This document shows, one piece after another, positions 3,968 through 17,164 of a stretch of DNA of 24,000 bases. The stretch's first letter is position 1; each line of letters starts with the position of its first letter. The position numbers and the translations under genes are program-made. The notes beneath the pieces were generated by a model, which was not told the DNA's origin, ran no database searches, and worked only from the letters and a program-made list of their open reading frames with translations. The stretch covers positions 856,578 to 880,577 of the forward strand of contig NC_018645.1 in the NCBI RefSeq assembly GCF_000307105.1. The letters run 5' to 3'. The DNA comes from Desulfobacula toluolica Tol2 (lineage in GTDB: Bacteria; Desulfobacterota; Desulfobacteria; Desulfobacterales; Desulfobacteraceae).

Positions 3968-4152
3968 GTATATTCTCAGGGCGGGGTGAAATTCCCCACC
4001 GGCGGTAACCTGGCCTGTATCAGGAAGCCCGCGAGCGCTCCCCCCAAGGCTTGAATGAGAAAGCTTAAATTGAAAAGTTTAAACCAGGGGAGGTCAGCAG
4101 ATCCGGTTAAATTCCGGAGCCGACGGTTAAAGTCCGGATGGAAGAGAATGCG
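3968..4152 (+). promoter_or_regulatory. FMN riboswitch (RFN element)
   Basis: All canonical blocks are present: ATTCTCAGGGCGGGGTGAAATTCCCCACCGGCGGTAA ... AGCCCGCGAGCG ... GTCAGCAGATCCGGTTAAATTCCGGAGCCGACGGTTAAAGTCCGGATGGAAGAGAAT. P1 closes as ATTCTC (3972-3977) / GAGAAT (4144-4149). The variable P3 hairpin is unusually long (~55 nt, GCTCCCC...GGGGAGG). It sits directly upstream of ribB. I could not resolve the expression platform; there is a weak hairpin CAGGCA-ttgtac-TGCCTG at 4201-4218 followed by a T-rich run. Confidence 0.95.
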
Positions 4153-4280
4153 TCAAGGCTGTGTTTTGTCTTTGGCGGTTTCCTTTTTATCAAGGAACTG
4201 CAGGCATTGTACTGCCTGAACGTCTATTTTTCCTTTTGCCCTGATTCATGTTTAATTTTATTATTGTAAGGAGATCGACC

Positions 4281-4943
4281 ATGAATCAGAGTCTGTTAAC
4301 TCGATTTGGAAATCCAGAGGAACGTGTGAAAAACGCGCTGTTATCCCTTCAGAACGGAAACGGCGTACTGGTCACGGATGATGAAGACCGAGAAAATGAA
4401 GGTGATCTTATTTTTCCGGCCCAGTCTTTGACGGAACAGCAGATGGCCATAATGATCCGGGAATGCTCGGGCATCGTCTGTTTGTGCCTGACCGAAGACA
4501 AGGTGGCATCCCTTGAATTGCCCATGATGGTTCAGCACAATTCCAGCCGATACCAGACGGCATTTACCATCTCCATTGAAGCTGCCACGGGAGTCACTAC
4601 GGGGGTGTCTGCAAAGGACCGTGTCGCAACGGTGCATGCAGCCGCAGCTGATAGTGCAGGGCCTTGTGACCTGAATAGTCCGGGTCATGTTTTTCCCTTA
4701 AAAGCAAAACCCGGCGGAGTGCTTGAGCGTGGGGGCCATACCGAAGCCACCGTTGATTTAATGCGCCTTTCCGGGTTGTCTCCTTGCGGGGTGCTGTGTG
4801 AATTGACCAACCCCGACGGCACCATGGCCAGACTGCCGAAGATCGTTGAATTTGCCGGGATACACGGGTTTCCCGTGCTGACCATTGATGATTTGATTTT
4901 GTATCGGAAAAATCAGAATTCGGAACACGACTCAACACTTTAA
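4281..4943 (+). CDS. ribB: 3,4-dihydroxy-2-butanone-4-phosphate synthase
   Basis: Hallmark motif [17 protein letters not shown], plus GHTEATVDL and [15 protein letters not shown] chose the start at ATG 4281 ([10 protein letters not shown]) because AAGGAG lies 7 nt upstream; the track start at 4248 has no SD. At 220 aa it is a monofunctional RibB. Confidence 0.95.
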
Positions 4944-9077: not shown

Positions 9078-9146
9078 TATGAAAGCAGCGAGTAATGAGT
9101 GTTGAGATTCTCATCACCCAGAACCCAATGCCAAGTATTCAATTTT

Positions 9147-9210
9147 AATTATCAAGTCCCCACAATGTCAATTATCAAGTCCTCAATGTCAAGTATCAAG
9201 TACCTAATAC
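9147..9210 (+). repeat. three imperfect tandem ~21-nt repeats in the hypD-hypE spacer
   Basis: AATTATCAAGTCCCCACAATGTC (9147-9169), AATTATCAAGTCCTCAATGTC (9170-9190) and AAGTATCAAGTACCTAATAC (9191-9210). A weaker related stretch, CAAGTATTCAATTTT, lies just upstream (9132-9146). Confidence 0.8.
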
Positions 9211-10851: not shown

Positions 10852-11184
10852 TTATCTTGTGCGATAGAACCGGATACTTATTTCTTCTATGGTAACAAGC
10901 CCCTCAATAATCGTGTGGTCAATGACCGGCATAAACTTGTTTATTTTTTCCAGGGTATCTACAATCTCTATGACCATGGGCATATCTTCCGAAAGCCTTA
11001 AAATCTTTGTGGTATGAATCCTTGAATGCGCTCCAAAACCCAGGATACCACGGGTAACAGTTGCCCCGGCTAATCCCTGTTCTCTTGCTTTTTTTACAAT
11101 CCACTCATATAGCGGTGTTCCGTCTTTTTTATCAGACTCGCCAATAAAGATTCTGAGCAAATGCCCTTTTTCAGGAAGAACCAT
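10852..11184 (-). CDS. DUF190 (PII-like) protein commonly paired with crcB
   Basis: 110 aa. LLRIFIGESDKKDGTPLYEWIVKKAREQGLAGATVTRGILGFG matches DUF190. SD AAGGAG lies 7 nt upstream. It sits immediately downstream of crcB. Confidence 0.85.
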   Translation of the reverse strand: MVLPEKGHLLRIFIGESDKKDGTPLYEWIVKKAREQGLAGATVTRGILGFGAHSRIHTTKILRLSEDMPMVIEIVDTLEKINKFMPVIDHTIIEGLVTIEEISIRFYRTR

Positions 11185-11198
11185 AAATAATCTCCTTT

Positions 11199-11291
11199 AT
11201 AATAACTGCCATGGGCAAACCTGGTATTTTATTTAAGATTTGCCACAACAAGCATGAAAGTTGCTGTTTTGATTTTTAAAGACTTTCATAT
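11199..11291 (+). repeat. structured intergenic repeat, copy A
   Basis: TATAATAACTGCCATGGGCAAACCTGGTATTTTATTTAAGATTTGCCACAACAAGCATGAAAGTTGCTGTTTTGATTTTTAAAGACTTTCATAT. Stem 1 is GGGCAAA/TTTGCC and stem 2 is ATGAAAG/CTTTCAT. The right end overlaps the crcB stop codon (11286-11288). The left end is 15 nt from the DUF190 start codon. Confidence 0.85.
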
Positions 11292-11663
11292 GAATTTAGA
11301 CAAGGAAAATCCAAGCCAGACAGAGCAAAAACCCAGAATAAGGTGAAGCATCAGGTTTGTCATGGCTGAGGCAAGCTGCCCATCCCGGGCAAATGTGAAT
11401 ATTTCATACCCAAAGGTTGAAAAAGTTGTAAATCCTCCCATGAATCCAATGAGAATCAATGCCCGAATTTCAGGGCTGAATATTTGTCTTGATTCTGATA
11501 ATCCGCCCAGCAAACCGATTAAAAGGCATCCTATCACATTAACCGTCAGGGTCCCGTAGGGAAAAAAAGGATCATTGAACAGTCTGTGGGACAAATCACT
11601 GATCATATATCGACAGATTGAGCCTGCAAAGCCTCCCGCTCCAACCATTAACAGCTTCATCAT
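11286..11663 (-). CDS. crcB: fluoride ion channel CrcB (Fluc)
   Basis: 125 aa with four TM segments. GGFAGSICRY, TLTVNVIGCLLIG and GFMGGFTTFSTF are CrcB signature stretches. Confidence 0.95.
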   Translation of the reverse strand: MMKLLMVGAGGFAGSICRYMISDLSHRLFNDPFFPYGTLTVNVIGCLLIGLLGGLSESRQIFSPEIRALILIGFMGGFTTFSTFGYEIFTFARDGQLASAMTNLMLHLILGFCSVWLGFSLSKFI

Positions 11664-11790
11664 AATTTATCTCCGGAACGTTTCTTTTAACCAGCTTCTA
11701 CAGCCCAACTGACACTGTAGGTTTGTTTTTTTTGCTTATGTTTGGCCGCAACACAGAATAAAAATCACGATTGGGGCTGCCAAAATTTTC

Positions 11791-11892
11791 ATATAACTGC
11801 CACGGGCAGACCTGGTATTTTACATTGTTTTGCCCACAACAAAAAATGAAAGATATCTGATTCCAATAGGTTTGAAATCCTTTCATATAAAA
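11791..11892 (+). repeat. structured intergenic repeat, copy B
   Basis: ATATAACTGCCACGGGCAGACCTGGTATTTTACATTGTTTTGCCCACAACAAAAAATGAAAGATATCTGATTCCAATAGGTTTGAAATCCTTTCATATAAAA. Stem 1 is GGGCAGA/TTTGCCC and stem 2 is ATGAAAG/CTTTCAT. It lies 128 nt upstream (minus sense) of the crcB start. Confidence 0.85.
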
Positions 11893-11999
11893 TATTAACT
11901 CTCGAAAGTTTAAAGGCAAATGGGTACAAAAGCCATGATTATTTAAATGCCAGGTCTTTTTTTTAAATTTTATAACCACTGGAAACTTTCTGGAAATCT

Positions 12000-12428
12000 T
12001 TAACGGGTATGATGGATTTCCTTTATTTTAAGCCGCAACATCTTGTCTTTTACTGAAATGAGGCGATACATCACATTGCCGATCCGGATGTCCTCATCCG
12101 TCTTTGTTTTAGGAAATTTTAAAGTATATGAAACCTCTGGGTCCAAATCAAGCAGATAAAGATCAATGGTTGCCGTGTTGCCGCTTAGTCCCTTAAAAAC
12201 AATGGCTGTCCTGTTTGTAATAAACTTTTCATTTTTTAAAAGCAGCAACTGGTCCGCCATTATTTTTGAACGACTTGGCAGGCCAGGGGTTTGCAAACTT
12301 TTGGGCCTGCCCCTGTAACGGTCTTGATAGGATGGTGTTGATACATAATAGGTGATTGCAAAAGGGATTGCCAGGGTTAACACAATAAAAAGAACGGCAA
12401 GCCATCCTTTGGGACTTGGCAGATGCAT
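12000..12428 (-). CDS. hypothetical protein with an N-terminal membrane anchor
   Basis: 142 aa. One clear TM helix (WLAVLFIVLTLAIPFAITYYV) followed by a soluble domain that looks beta-rich. SD-like AAGGGAAAG lies upstream. I recognise no family. Confidence 0.5.
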   Translation of the reverse strand: MHLPSPKGWLAVLFIVLTLAIPFAITYYVSTPSYQDRYRGRPKSLQTPGLPSRSKIMADQLLLLKNEKFITNRTAIVFKGLSGNTATIDLYLLDLDPEVSYTLKFPKTKTDEDIRIGNVMYRLISVKDKMLRLKIKEIHHTR

Positions 12429-13171
12429 TGGCTTTCCCTTTCGTTAATATGTATGCATTATCTTTGGAATTTTTAATAATATCAATTTATAAGAACAAAT
12501 TCAATCCGGGAAACCCTGCTCCGGTTTTTTTATATTTTTCTGTAATTTTTAACTTGGGTTTTTCTTAAATAAAGCAGATAGTTTTGCAAGAAATGCTTAT
12601 AAGGCCGTGTCGATATCTCGTTTTGGGGATTTAAAAATTAAACCTTGACGGTTTATAAAACATTGAATTGTCTTCATCTTTAAATGAGGCATATTCAATA
12701 TATGCAGGGTTGTTTTTTTTGATCAGTTTTGGATGTTGAAAATTGTTAGAATATATAGGCTCTCAAGGCCTGTTTTTTTTCATCAACCGTCTGCATTGAA
12801 TGATTTTCGGACATCTTAAAATTGCGGTCCCATAGTTTTCTGTGTTGGCGTTGTCGTGTAGAGGGCTGCCGGTAAAAAGGTTTCTCGCGAGAGGGGTTGG
12901 TATGCGGGATGCTTGTTTGGAAGGGTGGACAAAAGAGATGTATATTTGTAAAGGTCTTTGAATATGCCTCAAAAATAATTAAAACAAGCAAATATCGAAT
13001 GATATTCAAGATTCTTGCTAAATTGGTATGGGTAACAAACTATAAAAATAGTAAATGATTTATATTTTTATGAGGATATTATCAGGAGAATTATATGGTA
13101 ATATATTGTTTTGTTAAGATATAACGCTATATCGGATGGATTTTGGGATTATTATTTAAAAAAAAGTCTTC

Positions 13172-13201
13172 TTGACAATGGATAATTTATTATTTTAGAA
13201 T
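13172..13201 (+). promoter_or_regulatory. putative sigma70-type promoter
   Basis: TTGACA (13172-13177), an 18-nt spacer, then TAGAAT (13196-13201). It lies about 60 nt upstream of the 13261 ATG. Confidence 0.4.
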
Positions 13202-13260
13202 GCGACTCGAAATTCAGAGATGATACAGTAGTTAAAAAAGTCAAAGACAGGAGGCAGGGT

Positions 13261-13440
13261 ATGAAATTTCTTGAAGTCTTGATCAATATCTTGTCTGCTG
13301 CTGAAAATGATATTTATCAAGCGATTTTGACCAAAATAATTTTTCAGTCCAAAGGCACCATTAAAGCCGATACCGTTACAATAGACCGGAAACATGCAGA
13401 ATTATTTTTTTTGGGAGGTCATAAAGCCTCTTTTGTTTGA
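13261..13440 (+). CDS. small hypothetical protein (59 aa), below the ORF-track cutoff
   Basis: My translation: MKFLEVLINILSAAENDIYQAILTKIIFQSKGTIKADTVTIDRKHAELFFLGGHKASFV-stop. A strong SD AGGAGG lies 6 nt upstream, a promoter-like TTGACA/TAGAAT further upstream, and the stop codon sits inside a terminator-like hairpin. I recognise no family. The overlapping minus-strand ORF 13195..13395 has none of these signals. Confidence 0.4.
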   Translation: MKFLEVLINILSAAENDIYQAILTKIIFQSKGTIKADTVTIDRKHAELFFLGGHKASFV

Positions 13441-13462
13441 ACCAGGACAAAGAAGGCTTTAT
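13421..13462 (+). terminator. terminator-like hairpin after the small ORF
   Basis: ATAAAGCCTCTTTTGT (13421-13436) pairs with ACAAAGAAGGCTTTAT (13447-13462): 14 Watson-Crick pairs, one G-U pair and one mismatch out of 16, with a 10-nt loop. It is followed by TAATTTAAATTAATTTTTT. Confidence 0.4.
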
Positions 13463-13515
13463 TAATTTAAATTAATTTTTTAATAGAACACCAACAAGAA
13501 AAAAAGGAGAAAAAG

Positions 13516-14427
13516 ATGACAAAAAATTGGACTGTTTCGCTCACTATTACCGGTATGCTGCTTCTGATGCTGACCTGTGCTATGCCAGCCTGGGCCGGCC
13601 ATTATACGCCGGGAACAGAAGGTGCCATGGGAGCTTCCGTTCCACCGCCGGGATTTCATTACAAGCAATACAACATATATGTGGACTCAGATACCTTGAA
13701 GGATGATGATGGCGATGATATAAATATCGGTTTTGATCTGAATGTTTTTGCCCAGGCACACCGGCTTATTTATATCACCAAACACAAGTTTTTAGGAGCG
13801 GATTACGGAATGAGTACGATTGTCCCGATTGTCGGAACTGATTTTAATCTTAACGTTCCTGGTGTGCATGATTCCGAGGTAGGTTTGGGGGATATTTTTA
13901 TTGAGCCCCTTATTTTGGCTTGGCACACGGACAGATGGGATGCGGTACTGGGGCTGGGCGTAAACCTGCCCACAGGAGAATATGACTGGACAGAACCGGC
14001 ATCTGCCGGCCAAGGATATACCAGCGGCATGATGACCCTTGGTGCGACTTATTATATAGACCAGGCCAAAAGCTGGGCTGTGTCAGCATTGTCCAGGACT
14101 CTGGTATATGGGGAACAGGATGATACAGATATCACCCCTGGCTGGGAATTTATCGTTGATTGGGGAATCAGCAAACAATTTCCCATCTCTGAAGGGCTTC
14201 TTATCAGGCCTGCACTTGTGGGATACACATATTGGCAGATGGATGAAGACAGCGGCACAGGTTCCTCTGATGAGAAGGGTACAAATTACGCCATTGGAGC
14301 GGAAGTCAATCTCTTCTGGTTACCGCCTCATCTGTTTCAGATCAACCTGAGGGTATTGCAGGATTTTGGTACTGAAAATGAAGCAGAAACTACAAAGGTG
14401 GTTTTCTCTGTTGTTAAATCGTTTTAG
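13516..14427 (+). CDS. outer-membrane beta-barrel transporter, MetA-pathway-of-phenol-degradation-like family (PF13557-type)
   Basis: 303 aa. Signal peptide ending AMPAWA-GHY. The N-terminal HYTPGTEGAMGASVPPPGFHY and GLGDIFIEPLILAW motifs are typical of the family. Amphipathic beta pattern and a C-terminal aromatic residue (…VVKSF). SD AAGGAG upstream. Confidence 0.8.
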   Translation: MTKNWTVSLTITGMLLLMLTCAMPAWAGHYTPGTEGAMGASVPPPGFHYKQYNIYVDSDTLKDDDGDDINIGFDLNVFAQAHRLIYITKHKFLGADYGMSTIVPIVGTDFNLNVPGVHDSEVGLGDIFIEPLILAWHTDRWDAVLGLGVNLPTGEYDWTEPASAGQGYTSGMMTLGATYYIDQAKSWAVSALSRTLVYGEQDDTDITPGWEFIVDWGISKQFPISEGLLIRPALVGYTYWQMDEDSGTGSSDEKGTNYAIGAEVNLFWLPPHLFQINLRVLQDFGTENEAETTKVVFSVVKSF

Positions 14428-14589
14428 TTAGAAATATAAAATAAAAAAAGCAACCTGTTACAACTATGGAATATAAGAGCAGCATGGCGATGCAGATTGG
14501 GCAAATTTCATATCCATAGAAGTGAAGCTTTTAGATATCGCCAACCAGCTTGATTTGCTTCCATGGCGATCAGGGGTGCTTAAATTAAG

Positions 14590-15153
14590 TTATTTGAATG
14601 CCCGGCTTTTTTTGCCGGGCATTTTAAATTTTGGTGCAACAGGATCAAGCAAGCTTAATTTAGAGATAAACAGATCCGCATCAAAGGGTTTGGCAATAAT
14701 ATCCCGGTGCTGGTTGAAAAGCCCAATTGCCTTTAATGCAACTTTTTTTGCAGGAGCTTTTCTGCCATATGTAAGCTGTTCATATGCGATGGCGGCAAGA
14801 ACCATTGCCTGCAATGCTTTTTTGTTTTTACCCTGGGCTGTTGTCCATTTTATTTCCAGCCATTCATGGAATTCAAAAAACAATTCAAAGTTCCATAATA
14901 TGCGGGCAATTACAAAAAAATCATCATCCGGCTGCAAATTAAAGGCAGCCATCTGATCAAATGTTTTTTTTAAAAAGTCTGCCCTGTTATTGACGTATGC
15001 TTTTATATGGACTTGAGTTTCCCCGTATTGATACTGACTGCTCGCAGTGTGAAAAAAAGACGGGTCTTTTGCCTGAATTGCTTTGACAAAACAATGGCCC
15101 AGGGTATTTCTGATGTCTCGGGATAAGCGGTTTTCAAACGGGTTAAATTTCAT
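14590..15153 (-). CDS. DUF309 domain protein
   Basis: LWNFELFFEFHEWLEIKW fits the DUF309 signature (F-x-x-x-x-FxEaHE-x-lE-x-x-W). I prefer the start at ATG 15153 (MKFNPFEN...) because it overlaps the upstream gene's TGA as ATGA (translational coupling). The track start is 15171. Confidence 0.7.
   Translation of the reverse strand: MKFNPFENRLSRDIRNTLGHCFVKAIQAKDPSFFHTASSQYQYGETQVHIKAYVNNRADFLKKTFDQMAAFNLQPDDDFFVIARILWNFELFFEFHEWLEIKWTTAQGKNKKALQAMVLAAIAYEQLTYGRKAPAKKVALKAIGLFNQHRDIIAKPFDADLFISKLSLLDPVAPKFKMPGKKSRAFK
14597..14623. terminator. perfect 10-bp hairpin AATGCCCGGC-TTTTTTT-GCCGGGCATT between convergent genes
   Basis: The stem is 14597-14606 / 14614-14623 with a 7-T loop. It is followed on the plus strand by TTAAATTTT. 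It lies inside the last 13 codons (KFKMPGKKSRAFK) of the minus-strand DUF309 gene. Confidence 0.5.
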
Positions 15154-16118
15154 ATCTGTATTTCCCAGCATCTATGAATCTGTTTGCGCTTGTTCTGATA
15201 ATCCTCGGGAATGGTTTTGGATGTAATCTCCTTGATATTTGTGACGGTCAGCTCTTTTGTCTTTAAATCAAAATTTTGATGATTGGTGGAAAAGAAAACC
15301 ACAGCACTGGTTTTCATCAACTCAAAAACAGCATTGAGTAAATGTGGGTGTTCTTTTGCAATGTCAAAATGCCCGTTGGTCATCCGGGTGGTTGAATAAG
15401 AAGGCGGATCCACAACCGCCAGATCAAAGTCCCGGTATCCGTCATGCCTGGCCCGTTCAAGAAAATCAAGGGTGTCTTCCCGGATTATGGTGTGGTGGGA
15501 ACCTGTGAGACCGTTGAGTTCAAGATTGTCTTTTACCCAGTTGACAGCGGTTTGAGAGCGATCCACAGATACGGTCCGGCAGGCACCCCCTTTTGCCGCA
15601 TAACAGGTGAATGACCCTGTATAGCAATACAGGTTTAAAAAGTTTTTACCTGCTGCCTGCTTGCGCACCATCATTCTTGTGTTCCTGTGATCTGAGAACA
15701 GGCCCGTATCCACATAATCGTTTGGATTGATGTAAAATTTAAGGTCTCTTTCACCCATGGCTATTTTCTGGTTTGTATGGTTGATACGCTCGTATCTTTT
15801 TCCTTCCTTGATTCCTGACCGCCGGATTTTAAGATGCAGGTTTTCGTTTGGAACGTCCAATGCACGGGCAACGGCTTTGCCCATTATGGGAAGCCATTCC
15901 GGGAAGGATTGTTTGCGGCTGTATTCAGCAACAACAAGGTGGCCGTCATACCAGTCCACAACAGCCCTGATTTCCGGGATATCCCAGTCGTATAGCCTGA
16001 AGATGTCCAGGCCCTGTTTTTTATACCGTTTGCGCAGATGCTTGAATCTTTTTTTCACTTTGTTGGCCAGCATCCGGGCCTGATCTCTCTGCTTCTCCTG
16101 CAATGCCTGATTGTTCAT
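15150..16118 (-). CDS. class I SAM-dependent 23S rRNA methyltransferase, RlmK-like (homolog of the C-terminal half of E. coli RlmKL)
   Basis: 322 aa. From memory it aligns with the E. coli RlmKL C-terminal domain: FRLYDWDIPEI vs YRLYDADLPEY; DYVDTGLFSDHR vs DYLDTGLFLDHR; FLNLYCYTGSF vs FLNLFSYTGSA; VDPPSYS vs IDPPTFS; KQIHRCWEI vs RQIHNCWLI. Confidence 0.85.
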   Translation of the reverse strand: MNNQALQEKQRDQARMLANKVKKRFKHLRKRYKKQGLDIFRLYDWDIPEIRAVVDWYDGHLVVAEYSRKQSFPEWLPIMGKAVARALDVPNENLHLKIRRSGIKEGKRYERINHTNQKIAMGERDLKFYINPNDYVDTGLFSDHRNTRMMVRKQAAGKNFLNLYCYTGSFTCYAAKGGACRTVSVDRSQTAVNWVKDNLELNGLTGSHHTIIREDTLDFLERARHDGYRDFDLAVVDPPSYSTTRMTNGHFDIAKEHPHLLNAVFELMKTSAVVFFSTNHQNFDLKTKELTVTNIKEITSKTIPEDYQNKRKQIHRCWEIQI

Positions 16119-16252
16119 CTACAGCACTCCTGTATCATTAAATAAAACATCCATACACTATTTGAGTATGAATTTGCAACTCTGCGGATGTCCTTGACTT
16201 ATGGAATATGAACAATAAAAATCATCCATGGGGTTTGTGAATAATATTATGA

Positions 16253-16347
16253 TATAACTGCCACGGCAGGCTTGGTATTTCGCCTTGGTTTGAACACAAC
16301 AAAACATGAAATTTTCTTTTTGGATTTTTCAAGACTTTCATATAAAA
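16253..16347 (+). repeat. structured intergenic repeat, copy C (more diverged)
   Basis: ATATAACTGCCACGGCAGGCTTGGTATTTCGCCTTGGTTTGAACACAACAAAACATGAAATTTTCTTTTTGGATTTTTCAAGACTTTCATATAAAA. Stem 1 is degraded (TTTGAAC replaces TTTGCCC). Stem 2 is ATGAAA/TTTCAT. It lies 65 nt upstream of the 16412 start. Confidence 0.8.
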
Positions 16348-16411
16348 CTATAAACAAACCATGAATTTTGTACTATTATCTGTAAAACTGTAAATAAAAA
16401 AGGAGTCGGTT

Positions 16412-17077
16412 ATGCTCAAAGATGGTGAAAAAGGGGTGATTCGTCAACGAGGTAAGGAAAAAGAAACCTATGCCATTGCCCCGCATCTTCCCTGCGGGAT
16501 TGTGAATCCGGATCAGCTCAGGAAGCTTGCGGATGTGGCCCAAAAATATAATGTGTCGGATGTGAAAATCACCAGTGCGGCAAGGATCGCCCTTATCGGC
16601 ATTACCGAAGACCAGGTGGACGGCATCTGGAAGGATCTTGGCATGGATGCCGGTCATGCCACAGGGCTTTGTGTCAGAAGCATCAAGGTTTGCCCCGGAA
16701 CAGCCTATTGCCGCCTGGCACAGCAGGACAGTCTTAAGATGGGCATGGCACTGGATGAAACTTATCATGGCATGGTTCTGCCCAGTAAAATGAAAATGGG
16801 TGTCAGCGGCTGCAAAATTCAATGTGCTGAAAATTGTATCAAAGATATCTCCCTTTACGGAACCAAAAATGGATGGACCGTCATGGTCGGCGGCAATGGG
16901 TCGGCAAGACCGAGGCTTGCCGATCTTCTGGTGGAAGATCTTGACTTTGAAGATGCCCGGGCCATGGTGGCAAAGGTGGTGGCGTACTACAAGGAGAATT
17001 CAAAACGCGAACGCATGGGCCGGATGATTGAACGTATCGGTCTTGATATAATGAAGGCAAAATTAAATATCAAATGA
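16412..17077 (+). CDS. small siroheme-[4Fe-4S] nitrite/sulfite reductase family protein (assimilatory-type low-molecular-weight sulfite reductase, alSiR-like)
   Basis: 221 aa. The cluster/siroheme Cys motif C-x5-C...C-x3-C is present as CPGTAYC and CKIQC. There is a NIR_SIR ferredoxin-like half-domain (DQLRKLADVAQKY...VKITSAARIALIGI). The size matches the ~218-aa Desulfovibrio alSiR class. SD AAGGAG upstream. Confidence 0.85.
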   Translation: MLKDGEKGVIRQRGKEKETYAIAPHLPCGIVNPDQLRKLADVAQKYNVSDVKITSAARIALIGITEDQVDGIWKDLGMDAGHATGLCVRSIKVCPGTAYCRLAQQDSLKMGMALDETYHGMVLPSKMKMGVSGCKIQCAENCIKDISLYGTKNGWTVMVGGNGSARPRLADLLVEDLDFEDARAMVAKVVAYYKENSKRERMGRMIERIGLDIMKAKLNIK

Positions 17078-17164
17078 TATAATAACGGCCATGGCAGATC
17101 ACTCTGCCACAACAAGAAATAAAAGGTATCTAATTTCAATAGGTTGGAGATTTTTTATATAAAA
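17077..17164 (+). repeat. structured intergenic repeat, copy D (short-loop variant)
   Basis: ATATAATAACGGCCATGGCAGATCACTCTGCCACAACAAGAAATAAAAGGTATCTAATTTCAATAGGTTGGAGATTTTTTATATAAAA. Stem 1 is GGCAGA-tcac-TCTGCC. Stem 2 is ATAAAA/TTTTAT, a compensated change. It starts at the alSiR stop codon and ends 20 nt before the 17184 ATG. Confidence 0.8.

What the first reader, a model, noticed from the sequence alone, without database searches (positions are those of the whole stretch)
11199..17164. Same-orientation, strictly intergenic ~90-100-nt two-hairpin repeat family with compensatory stem changes
Four full copies occur within 6 kb, each in a non-coding spacer and all in the same orientation: A 11199-11291, B 11791-11892, C 16253-16347, D 17077-17164. 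Degenerate copies are reported separately. Shared blocks on the plus strand are ATATAACTGCCAYGGGCAGA ... TTTGCCCACAACAA-NN-ATGAAAG-(23-29 nt)-CTTTCATATAAAA. The structure is conserved, not just the sequence. Stem 1 is GGGCAAA/TTTGCC in A and GGGCAGA/TTTGCCC in B (one G-U pair that exists only if the plus strand is the RNA). In D it is GGCAGA/TCTGCC: A->G and T->C change together, and the loop shrinks from ~18 nt to 4 nt. Stem 2 is ATGAAAG/CTTTCAT in A and B, but ATAAAA/TTTTAT in D, where G->A is compensated by C->T. The stem-2 loop comes in two flavours (A~C and B~D), which suggests subfamilies. CTGCC...GGCAG just upstream could pair as an alternative to stem 1. The orientation is independent of flanking gene direction: A and B sit in a minus-strand operon, C and D in a plus-strand one. 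That argues against a classic 5'-UTR riboswitch. It favours an interspersed structured element such as a REP/BIME/MITE-like repeat, an sRNA family, or a protein-bound insulator/terminator. Read on the minus strand, stem 2 is followed by TTTTTGTTGTG, which is weakly terminator-like. I do not recognise it as any named RNA or repeat family.
Basis: seen in the sequence. Interest (0 to 1): 0.7.

Follow-up and report, generated by a model that had tools for sequence, protein, structure and literature searches.

The report
Small hairpin-bearing mobile repeat of Desulfobacteraceae
The four repeats are real copies of a roughly 90-base, gene-less mobile DNA element with two hairpins, common in Desulfobacteraceae genomes, that inserts in one orientation just after the bases ATAA; it looks like an undescribed family of a known general kind, not a regulatory RNA.

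Summary
**Observation.** It is confirmed. The window holds four copies, all on the + strand, with none expected by chance. Both hairpins show compensating base changes across about 150 relatives.

**What it is.** It is a dispersed repeat family. At least 163 copies were found in sampled DNA of Desulfocicer, Desulfamplus, Desulfobacterium and several uncultured relatives. The window itself is from Desulfobacula.

**Evidence for mobility:**
- Close relatives have uninterrupted "empty" sites at positions A, B and C.
- One metagenome bin carries both the filled and the empty form of the same locus.
- Insertion is always directly 3' of ATAA (usually TATAA).
- There are no terminal inverted repeats and no duplication longer than 2 bp.
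- The element's own right end is ...CATATAA(A), which recreates a target. This explains the head-to-tail arrays.
- In 14 of 51 cases the target TAA is the stop codon of the upstream gene.

**What did not hold up.** Orientation does not follow gene direction, and elsewhere it is often mixed. The four + copies here carry little weight.

**Mechanism.** The most likely route is transposition as folded single-stranded DNA by an HUH-type enzyme encoded elsewhere, as in IS200/IS605-derived elements. That enzyme was not found.

**Database and literature checks.** There was no match in Rfam, plasmids, phages or the searchable literature.

**Verdict.** A new variant of a known kind, of moderate interest.

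The parts
11206..11294 (+). Copy A. Long left module, right-end hairpin of the A/C flavour, right end CATATGAA. The target ATAA lies at 11202-11205. The reverse complement of its right end now encodes the last two codons and the stop codon of crcB.
   Evidence: 71.1 bits. Relatives L123/L124/L125 have an 8-14 nt crcB-DUF190 spacer without it.
11797..11891 (+). Copy B. Its parts are CTGCC 11797-11801; hairpin 1 arms GGGCAGA 11804-11810 and TTTTGCCC 11828-11835; CACAACAA 11835-11842; hairpin 2 arms ATGAAAG 11846-11852 and CTTTCAT 11880-11886; right end ATAAA. The target ATAA lies at 11793-11796.
   Evidence: 82.5 bits. Absent from the orthologous spacer in L123-L125.
11744..11796 (+). Decayed unit immediately upstream of B (GGCCGCAACACAGAA-TAAAAATC...AAAATTTTCATATAA). 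Its right end supplied the ATAA after which B sits, so this is a two-unit head-to-tail array.
   Evidence: Read against the CCGGC-type unit. The segment is absent in relatives. The model gives only a weak hit, at 11700-11765 (E = 4), which overlaps only the left part of this segment, so this part is tentative.
16258..16346 (+). Copy C. Long left module with one G fewer, right-end hairpin of the A/C flavour. The target ATAA lies at 16254-16257, inside a conserved ..ATGATATAA.
   Evidence: 75.7 bits. Relatives L123, L124, L126 and L127 keep ..ATG(A/G)TATAA with no element after it.
17086..17163 (+). Copy D. Short left module (hairpin GGCAGA-TCAC-TCTGCC), right-end hairpin of the B/D flavour with stem ATAAAA/TTTTAT. 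The target ATAA lies at 17082-17085, 5-8 nt after the stop codon of the small sulfite-reductase-like gene.
   Evidence: 48.7 bits. At the equivalent site, L123 carries a different family member that abuts the TAA stop codon.

Best explanation
These are copies of a non-autonomous mobile DNA element of about 80-95 nt.

**Anatomy.** The unit reads [ATAA|] C(T)GCC-AYG-GGCAG...(variable upper stem and loop)...CTGCC-CACAACAA - 2-4 nt - ATGAAAGnn...(variable loop)...nnCTTTCAT-ATAA(A).

**Shown.**
- It inserts in one orientation immediately 3' of ATAA (mostly TATAA, often a TAA stop codon).
- It has no terminal inverted repeats and no target duplication longer than 2 bp.
- Its own right end ends in ...TATAA(A) and so recreates a target. 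Further units land there and build head-to-tail arrays.
- Left and right modules occur in different combinations.

**Inferred.**
- The element moves as a folded single strand (the + strand).
- The hairpins and the invariant single-stranded motifs (CAYG, CACAACAA, ATAA) are read by an HUH-type (Y1, IS200/IS605- or RAYT-like) transposase encoded elsewhere in the genome.
- That enzyme cuts after ATAA at both ends and pastes the strand after an ATAA in the target.
- Effects on neighbouring genes are incidental. Insertion is tolerated because the AT-rich target lies at gene ends and in spacers.

**My estimates.** A mobile, gene-less repeat of this kind: about 0.9. The single-strand HUH route specifically: about 0.5.
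For: **A dispersed family.**
Nearly all are Desulfobacteraceae.
- The covariance model finds 163 copies at E <= 0.001 in 648 kb. Of the 150 best-scoring hits (the aligned set), 62 fall in 27 loci of Desulfocicer vacuolatum and 51 in 39 contigs of one MAG.

**Insertion.**
- The crcB-DUF190 spacer is 8-14 nt in three relatives and 101 nt here.
- Site C relatives keep ..TATAA uninterrupted, and site B is also empty.
- No model hits occur anywhere in 20-kb orthologous loci of relatives.
- Two contigs of MAG230 with 99% identical flanks differ by exactly one unit, inserted after CATATAA.
- At site D a relative carries a different family member abutting the stop codon.

**Target and ends.**
- The left flank reads A63 T69 A90 T92 A99 A98 % | C95 %.
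- The right end CATATAA is constant while the left flank varies upstream of TAA.
- In 14 of 51 cases the TAA is the upstream gene's stop codon.

**Arrays.** Neighbouring copies less than 500 nt apart are in the same orientation 13 times and opposite 1-2 times. About one third of units directly follow or precede another.

**Structure under selection and strand-specific.** Covariation is seen. G.T exceeds A.C on the + strand.

**No gene-orientation rule.** Contexts are 25 co-oriented, 15 anti-oriented, 14 convergent and 13 divergent.
Against: - No transposase was found next to any copy or recurring near copies. The one IS200-like gene in the sample (L072) has unrelated end hairpins.
- The two hairpins of a unit are unlike each other, whereas IS200/IS605 ends usually carry similar hairpins.
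- I see no IS608-style complement of ATAA just 5' of either hairpin.
- No significant link was found between orientation and local GC skew or coding strand.
- The A-run at the junction means a 1-2 bp duplication cannot be excluded.
- The G.T excess comes from related copies and from an alignment fitted to an RNA model, so it is only suggestive.
- The MAG230 filled/empty pair comes from metagenome contigs that break in repeats.
Confidence: 0.6

Rival explanations
1. It is the same mobile element, but moved as a double-stranded circle by a site-specific recombinase. This could be a serine recombinase as in IS607, or a tyrosine recombinase. Recombination would occur between the circle junction ...CATATAA|C... 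and a target sharing a 2-bp AA (or TAA) core.
For: The shared signatures fit: oriented insertion, no inverted repeats, and the same AA at both junctions. The A-run makes a 2-bp core compatible with the filled/empty pair. Head-to-tail arrays are typical of site-specific insertion next to an existing site.
Against: Long variable-loop hairpins with many compensating changes and the + strand G.T excess are not expected for double-stranded recombinase sites. No recombinase gene lies near any copy.
Confidence: 0.15
2. The repeat is kept mainly because it works as RNA: a small RNA family, an mRNA-stabilising or terminating 3' structure, or an attenuator. In that reading the spread of copies is secondary.
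For: Stems covary. The three-way CTGCC/GGCAG/CTGCC relation allows two alternative foldings, like a switch. On the - strand the left module folds into a longer G-U-rich hairpin followed by UUAUUAU. Copies 75-84% identical occur in genera whose coding DNA is about 66-70% identical.
Against: No Rfam family matches, even at E <= 10. Copies occur in all four gene contexts and in both orientations relative to genes. There is no promoter or proper terminator consensus. Relatives do without the element at the same genes. Fold energies of A, B and C are not better than shuffles on the + strand.
Confidence: 0.08
3. The repeat is a host-recruited protein-binding site, as E. coli BIMEs bind IHF, gyrase or Pol I. 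The palindromes would then be half-sites for a dimeric protein rather than hairpins.
For: There are invariant motifs (CAYG, CACAACAA) and a palindrome, CTGCCAYGGGCAG. Joint changes in both halves of a palindrome can mimic base-pair covariation.
Against: This does not explain the presence/absence differences, the ATAA junction or the arrays. Hairpin 2 has many different stem sequences and 20-30 nt variable loops, and up to about 230 nt in long versions. That fits folding, not fixed half-sites. This reading could be a secondary role rather than a true rival.
Confidence: 0.07

Closest known systems
PATEs: gene-less derivatives of IS200/IS605 insertion sequences, mobilised in trans by the Y1 HUH transposase TnpA (described in Haloquadratum and Geobacillus; PMC3119063, PMC10055086)
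   Same: Both are short and gene-less, with no terminal inverted repeats and no target duplication. Both insert in one orientation 3' of a 4-5 nt motif next to the left end, with a related motif at the right end. Both have hairpins just inside each end and are present in many copies without a transposase of their own.
   Different: No IS with the same ends was found. The left and right hairpins are unlike each other. No guide sequence complementary to the cleavage motif was seen beside the hairpins. At about 90 nt the unit is too short for the guide RNAs that PATEs often carry. Head-to-tail arrays are common.
REP sequences and BIMEs of Enterobacteria and Pseudomonas, with their RAYT (TnpA-REP) transposases (PMC2817692, PMC8266576, PMC3116915)
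   Same: Both are high-copy, extragenic hairpin repeats with conserved single-stranded bases at the hairpin foot. Both are assembled into mosaics and have species-specific variants. The enzyme is encoded once elsewhere in the genome.
   Different: REPs are single palindromes of 20-40 nt with a GTAG-type 5' motif, and BIMEs or REPINs pair them in alternating (inverted) orientation. Here a unit has two different hairpins and units are joined head to tail. No RAYT gene flanked by the repeats was seen.
BOX elements of Streptococcus pneumoniae (modular boxA-boxB(n)-boxC repeats; from my own knowledge, not tested here)
   Same: Both have a modular build from interchangeable parts and a stable folded structure. 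Both sit in intergenic positions in either orientation relative to genes, and neither has a known transposase.
   Different: I noted no sequence resemblance. A defined ATAA target with no duplication is shown here.
IS91/ISCR and Helitron-type rolling-circle elements (Y2 HUH; from my own knowledge)
   Same: These also insert next to a fixed short motif without duplication, lack inverted repeats, have a hairpin just before the 3' end, and tend to form tandem copies.
   Different: Those are kilobase-sized gene carriers. No such gene was found near these repeats. The end sequences are unrelated, as far as I can judge from memory.

Membership tests
IS200/IS605-derived non-autonomous element (PATE) | No terminal inverted repeats and no target-site duplication | tested here: met
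   The ends CTGCCAYGG... and ...CTTTCATATAA are not inverted copies of each other. The filled/empty pairs allow at most a 0-2 bp duplication.
IS200/IS605-derived non-autonomous element (PATE) | Oriented insertion 3' of a conserved 4-5 nt motif next to the left end | tested here: met
   The left flank is (T)ATAA in 90-99% of 150 copies. Empty sites already carry the motif.
IS200/IS605-derived non-autonomous element (PATE) | Hairpins just inside both ends, similar to each other | tested here: not met
   Hairpins are present and covary. However, the left one (GGGCAGA/TCTGCCC) and the right one (ATGAAAG/CTTTCAT) are unrelated.
IS200/IS605-derived non-autonomous element (PATE) | Short guide 5' of each hairpin that pairs with the cleavage motif | tested here: inconclusive
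   By inspection, no complement of ATAA lies 5' of either hairpin (CTGCCAYG and CACAACAAnn). The pairing rules are partly non-canonical and I recalled them from memory.
IS200/IS605-derived non-autonomous element (PATE) | A tnpA-carrying IS with the same ends in the same genome | tested here: inconclusive
   None was found in 923 kb of sampled loci. Whole genomes could not be scanned.
IS200/IS605-derived non-autonomous element (PATE) | Orientation biased with respect to the direction of replication | tested here: inconclusive
   There is no significant link with local GC skew or coding strand. Runs of a single orientation along two Desulfamplus contigs are suggestive only.
REP/BIME with RAYT | Single 20-40 nt imperfect palindrome with a conserved GTAG-type 5' tetranucleotide | tested here: not met
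   The unit is about 90 nt with two different hairpins. The conserved motifs are CAYG, CACAACAA and ATAA.
REP/BIME with RAYT | Repeats arranged in alternating (inverted) orientation | tested here: not met
   Neighbours closer than 500 nt are in the same orientation 13 times and opposite 1-2 times.
REP/BIME with RAYT | A RAYT gene flanked by the repeats | tested here: inconclusive
   The 20 ORFs flanked by elements on both sides look, by reading their N-terminal sequences, like ordinary genes; they were not scanned against Pfam. No Y1-like ORF was found, although the profile used was weak.
Classical MITE | Terminal inverted repeats plus a fixed-length target duplication | tested here: not met
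Described RNA families (Rfam 15), including riboswitches, sRNAs and transposon guide RNAs | Match to a curated covariance model | tested here: not met
   There is no hit on the elements at the gathering threshold or at E <= 10. Related loci give none either.
Integron attC site | Complementary outer cores RYYYAAC ... GTTRRRY that pair with each other | tested here: not met
   The left end ATATAAC resembles the first core and the junction falls at AA|C. However, no GTTRRRY partner exists, and the two ends do not pair with each other.
Intrinsic terminator | G+C-rich hairpin followed by a U-run, downstream of genes in the sense orientation | tested here: not met
   There is no U-run on the + strand. 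Only weak matches occur on the - strand, at A and D. Copies occur in all gene contexts.

The most novel reading that the evidence does not exclude
The family is moved by an enzyme, or by a recognition scheme, not yet described. The features pointing that way are two unlike hairpins; a left end in which three segments (CTGCC / GGCAG / CTGCC) change together, so that it can fold in two ways; an invariant CACAACAA; and cutting after ATAA. This could be a new branch of single-strand DNA transposases, or a cassette-like system without genes, conserved across several genera of Desulfobacteraceae.
Probability: 0.15. Interest if true: 0.7.

Novelty: new variant of a known kind. Interest (0 to 1): 0.4.

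Why it matters
- **Annotation.** These conserved, covarying hairpins could easily be mistaken for riboswitches or sRNAs in Desulfobacteraceae genomes. They should be masked as repeats.
- **Genome evolution.** The element lands at stop codons, inside operons (crcB-DUF190, sucC-sucD) and on promoter-like TATAA boxes. It rewrote the last two codons of crcB without changing the protein's length. It is therefore a frequent and apparently tolerated source of change in spacers.
- **Strain typing.** Copies present in one lineage and absent in its relatives are ready-made strain markers for these abundant marine sulfate reducers.
- **An unknown enzyme.** A conserved enzyme that reads these ends must exist in several genera. 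The well-defined substrate (ATAA, two hairpins, CACAACAA) gives a direct way to look for it.

Tried and rejected
**Known RNA family.** Rfam gave nothing on the window, on the two regions at E <= 10, or on six related loci.

**Sigma-54 or sigma-70 promoter.** Reading TGGTAT...TTGC by eye, the spacing is off by one, and copy D lacks it altogether. The consensus scan gave nothing consistent.

**Fluoride riboswitch.** I considered this because crcB and DUF190 are its usual targets. There was no hit.

**The transposase partner.** None of the following found one:
The only hit was an unrelated IS200-like gene in L072, whose end hairpin is different.
- A weak hit in L102, which I read as a probable Fic-domain protein from its sequence motif; it was not scanned against a domain library.
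- All-against-all clustering of ORFs near the copies. No recurrent transposase-like family appeared.
- ORFs downstream of left ends that lack a right end, and ORFs flanked by elements on both sides. By inspection of their sequences (no domain search), all look like ordinary genes.

**Replication-strand bias.** GC skew and coding-strand share of the 8-kb loci were not significant.

**Other collections.**
- Viral contigs gave six pattern matches. None scored significantly with the model, and the one I inspected (L131) lies in phage coding sequence.
- Plasmid and phage collections gave no match.
- A literature search by sequence motif found only unrelated primers.

**Other notes.**
- RNAalifold on the plain MAFFT alignment recovered only three pairs, because the loops are misaligned. 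I therefore supplied the structure by hand.
- The metagenome scan was not used.

Full report
**1.

- A pattern spanning the shared blocks (ATAACNGCCAY-GGCA-N5-35-CACAACAA) matches four times, all on the + strand. None was expected in 100 shuffles.
- A covariance model built from 32 non-redundant relatives finds exactly these four: 82.5, 75.7, 71.1 and 48.7 bits. Nothing else in the window scores better than E = 1.
- The hairpin-2 halves fall into two flavours. A~C is 82% identical and B~D is 80%, against 60-69% across flavours.
- D has a short left hairpin while B has a long one, so left and right halves are combined freely.

**2. The setting**

- The window is from Desulfobacula. Its CrcB protein is encoded identically in GCA_900105645.1, and the methyltransferase is labelled "MULTISPECIES Desulfobacula".
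- Copy A lies between crcB and a DUF190 gene, both on the - strand. Copy B lies upstream of crcB.
- Copy C lies in the divergent spacer between a methyltransferase gene (-) and a small sulfite/nitrite-reductase-like gene (+).
- Copy D lies between that gene and a DUF362 gene.
- Rfam finds only an FMN riboswitch elsewhere in the window. It finds nothing on the elements, even at E <= 10.

**3. A large dispersed family**

Nearly all are Desulfobacteraceae: Desulfocicer vacuolatum DSM 3385, a Desulfamplus MAG, Desulfobacterium MAGs, "Thermodesulfobacteriota MAG230" and others.
- The few hits in unrelated phyla lack the right end.
- The model finds 163 copies at E <= 0.001 in 648 kb. Of the 150 best-scoring hits, 62 fall in 27 D. 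vacuolatum loci and 51 in 39 MAG230 contigs.
- Typical units are 85-110 nt.
- About a third are joined head to tail to another unit...CTTTCATATAA|C(T)GCCAYGG....
- Neighbouring copies within 500 nt are in the same orientation 13 times and opposite once or twice.
- Variant left ends exist, such as CCGGC-ATG-GCCGG...CGGCC-ACAACAA and GGGCATG-TCC...GGA-CACAACAA.
- In D. vacuolatum and in a Desulfobacula relative, the small right hairpin is replaced by a GC-rich palindrome of 190-230 nt.

**4. Structure**

- On an alignment not fitted to any structure, 80% of cells pair, against 37-51% with slid partners. The three inner pairs of hairpin 2 carry 4, 10 and 11 double changes among 32 sequences.
- On 150 model-aligned copies, 17 of 21 pairs show double changes.
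- The short upstream palindrome CTGCC/GGCAG also covaries: UA 109 / CG 19 and CG 130 / GC 9.
- Three segments therefore change together, and the middle one can pair with either neighbour.
- G.T outnumbers A.C by 224 to 145 on the + strand, and by about 131 to 54 in the well-aligned parts of the stems. This points to the + strand as the folding strand. The copies are related and the alignment was fitted to an RNA model, so I treat it as suggestive.
- Single-sequence folding of A, B and C is no better than shuffles on the + strand.

**5. It is mobile**

Orthologous loci from three relatives, whose methyltransferase is 77-79% identical in protein sequence, were fetched.
- **Site A.** crcB and DUF190 are 8-14 nt apart in the relatives and 101 nt apart in the window.
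  - The flanks align across the gap.
  - In element orientation the window reads CCTTTATAATAA|[C...CATATGAA]|TTTAGACA. The relatives read CCTTTATAATAC-TTTAGACA and CCTTTTAAATTAA-TTTTGACA.
  - The insertion fell two codons before the old stop codon. CrcB ends ..SKVL* or ..SKLI* in relatives and ..SKFI* here. F, I and the stop codon are read from the reverse complement of the element's right end, and the protein length is unchanged at 125 aa.
- **Site C.** Relatives keep ..ATGATATAA or ..ATGGTATAA followed directly by unrelated sequence. In the window the element follows that TATAA.
- **Site B.** The element, and a decayed unit before it, are absent from relatives.
- **Whole loci.** None of the relatives' 20-kb loci has a model hit.
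- **Site D.** One relative carries a different family member, with a short left end and long palindrome, starting right after the TAA stop codon of the same gene. This suggests independent hits at a favoured site.
- **MAG230.** Two contigs with 99% identical flanks differ by exactly one unit...GGAGTTTCATATAA|AGAGAGG against ...GGAGTTTCATATAA|[CTGCC...CTTTCATATAAA]|AGAGAGG.

**6. Junction rules**

- Across 150 copies the left flank is A63 T69 A90 T92 A99 A98 %, followed by C at 95%.
- The right end CATATAA is constant, while the left flank varies upstream of TAA. The right TATAA therefore belongs to the element and is not a duplication.
- The A-run allows a duplication of 0, 1 or 2 bp, but not 3.
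- The ends are not inverted repeats of each other.
- Because the element ends in ...TATAA(A), it recreates its own target. This explains the arrays.
- In 14 of 51 cases with a co-oriented upstream gene, the target TAA is that gene's stop codon.
- The AT-rich target, together with selection against hits inside genes, is enough to explain the near-intergenic distribution of about 91%.

**7. Orientation**

- Relative to flanking genes the contexts are 25 co-oriented, 15 anti-oriented, 14 convergent and 13 divergent.
- Neighbours 500 nt or more apart are in the same orientation 24 times and opposite 14 times. 15 of 32 multi-copy loci are mixed.
- The four + copies in the window are therefore not evidence of a rule.
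- Tests against local GC skew and coding strand were not significant. These are poor proxies for the direction of replication.

**8. Mechanism**

- The combination seen here is the signature of IS200/IS605-type single-strand "peel and paste" transposition and of its gene-less derivatives (PMC10055086, PMC3119063). It consists of oriented insertion 3' of a short motif, a related motif at the right end, no inverted repeats, no duplication, hairpins inside both ends, strand-specific wobble pairs, and many copies without a gene.
- It is also close to REP/RAYT systems (PMC2817692, PMC8266576).
- I therefore favour an HUH-type enzyme acting in trans on the folded + strand.
- Several points count against simple membership:
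  - the two hairpins are unlike each other;
  - no guide-like complement of ATAA sits beside them;
  - arrays are head to tail, not alternating;
  - no transposase was found in 923 kb of sampled DNA.
- A double-strand site-specific recombinase using an AA core remains possible.
- An RNA role cannot be excluded as a side effect. It is not needed to explain the data, and it fits the gene contexts poorly.

**9. Known or new**

There is no match in Rfam, in plasmid or phage collections, or in viral contigs beyond chance. The signature motifs do not appear in the searchable literature, and text searches found no description of it in Desulfobacteraceae genome papers. ISfinder and repeat databases could not be consulted. 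I class it as a new variant of a known kind, namely REP/BIME/PATE-like mobile repeats.

**10. Verdict**

The feature is real, statistically solid, structured and mobile. The claims of "same orientation", "strictly intergenic" and "plus strand is RNA" do not generalise. Interest is moderate: an ordinary class of element, but with an unusual build and a missing enzyme.

Noticed in passing
window 3968-4153 (+): An FMN riboswitch (112.8 bits, gathering score 66.2) lies upstream of the ribB-like gene at 4248-4943.
   Followed up: partly
window 10852-11663 (-) and upstream to 12000: The crcB-DUF190 pair is a classic target of the fluoride riboswitch. It has no fluoride-riboswitch match even at E <= 10. 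The relative L123 has none at the gathering threshold either.
   Followed up: partly
window 11286-11294 (crcB 3' end): The insertion of copy A replaced the last two codons and the stop codon of crcB: relatives end ..SKVL*/..SKLI*, the window ..SKFI*. Protein length is unchanged. The old TTATTATAA plus the AGGAG ribosome-binding site now sit after the element, in front of DUF190.
   Followed up: yes
window 9140-9206 (+): Three consecutive 21-23 nt direct repeats (CAATTTTAATTATCAAGTCCCCA and variants) lie between hypD and the hypE-like gene (family D5).
   Followed up: no
window 11719, 12706, 12766, 13391, 20747 (+): There is a recurrent motif AGG(G/T)TTGTTTTTTTTG. The copies at 11716-11745 and 12703-12732 are 80% identical over 30 nt (families D6, D12, D15). 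These may be terminator tails or another small repeat.
   Followed up: no
L007, L011, L015, L019, L022, L031, L041, L046, L097, L099, L103 (Desulfocicer vacuolatum); L123 8510-8775 (-): Long versions of the element exist: a short left end (..CATG-hairpin-CACAACRAA), then ATATAG(G/A).., then a GC-rich long palindrome of 190-230 nt, then TTTTCATATAA. They are shared between genera. The two loci tested, L007 and L123, give no Rfam match.
   Followed up: partly
L005, L010, L044, L078, L091, L104, L105 (MAG230): A 26-nt GC hairpin (GGGCAACCACAGGGGGTTGCCCCTAC) is nested in the loop of the right hairpin in many units. It looks like a second, even smaller inserted repeat.
   Followed up: no
Desulfamplus MAG contig_2 (L079, L085, L111, L020, L112) and contig_7 (L029, L108, L071): The dominant orientation of units at each locus runs + + + + then - along contig_2 (one weaker opposite-strand hit at the first locus, L079), and + then - - along contig_7. 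This is what a replichore-dependent bias would look like. Local GC skew was uninformative.
   Followed up: partly
L124 7247-9118, L126 7109-8983, L127 2167-4086: In three relatives' loci (L124, L126, L127) a methyl-accepting chemotaxis protein gene sits between the small sulfite-reductase-like gene and DUF362. The window has only copy D at that position.
   Followed up: no
L024 25-2193 (Desulfocicer vacuolatum): Two units sit between sucC and sucD and a third just after sucD. The element is therefore tolerated inside a core metabolic operon.
   Followed up: no
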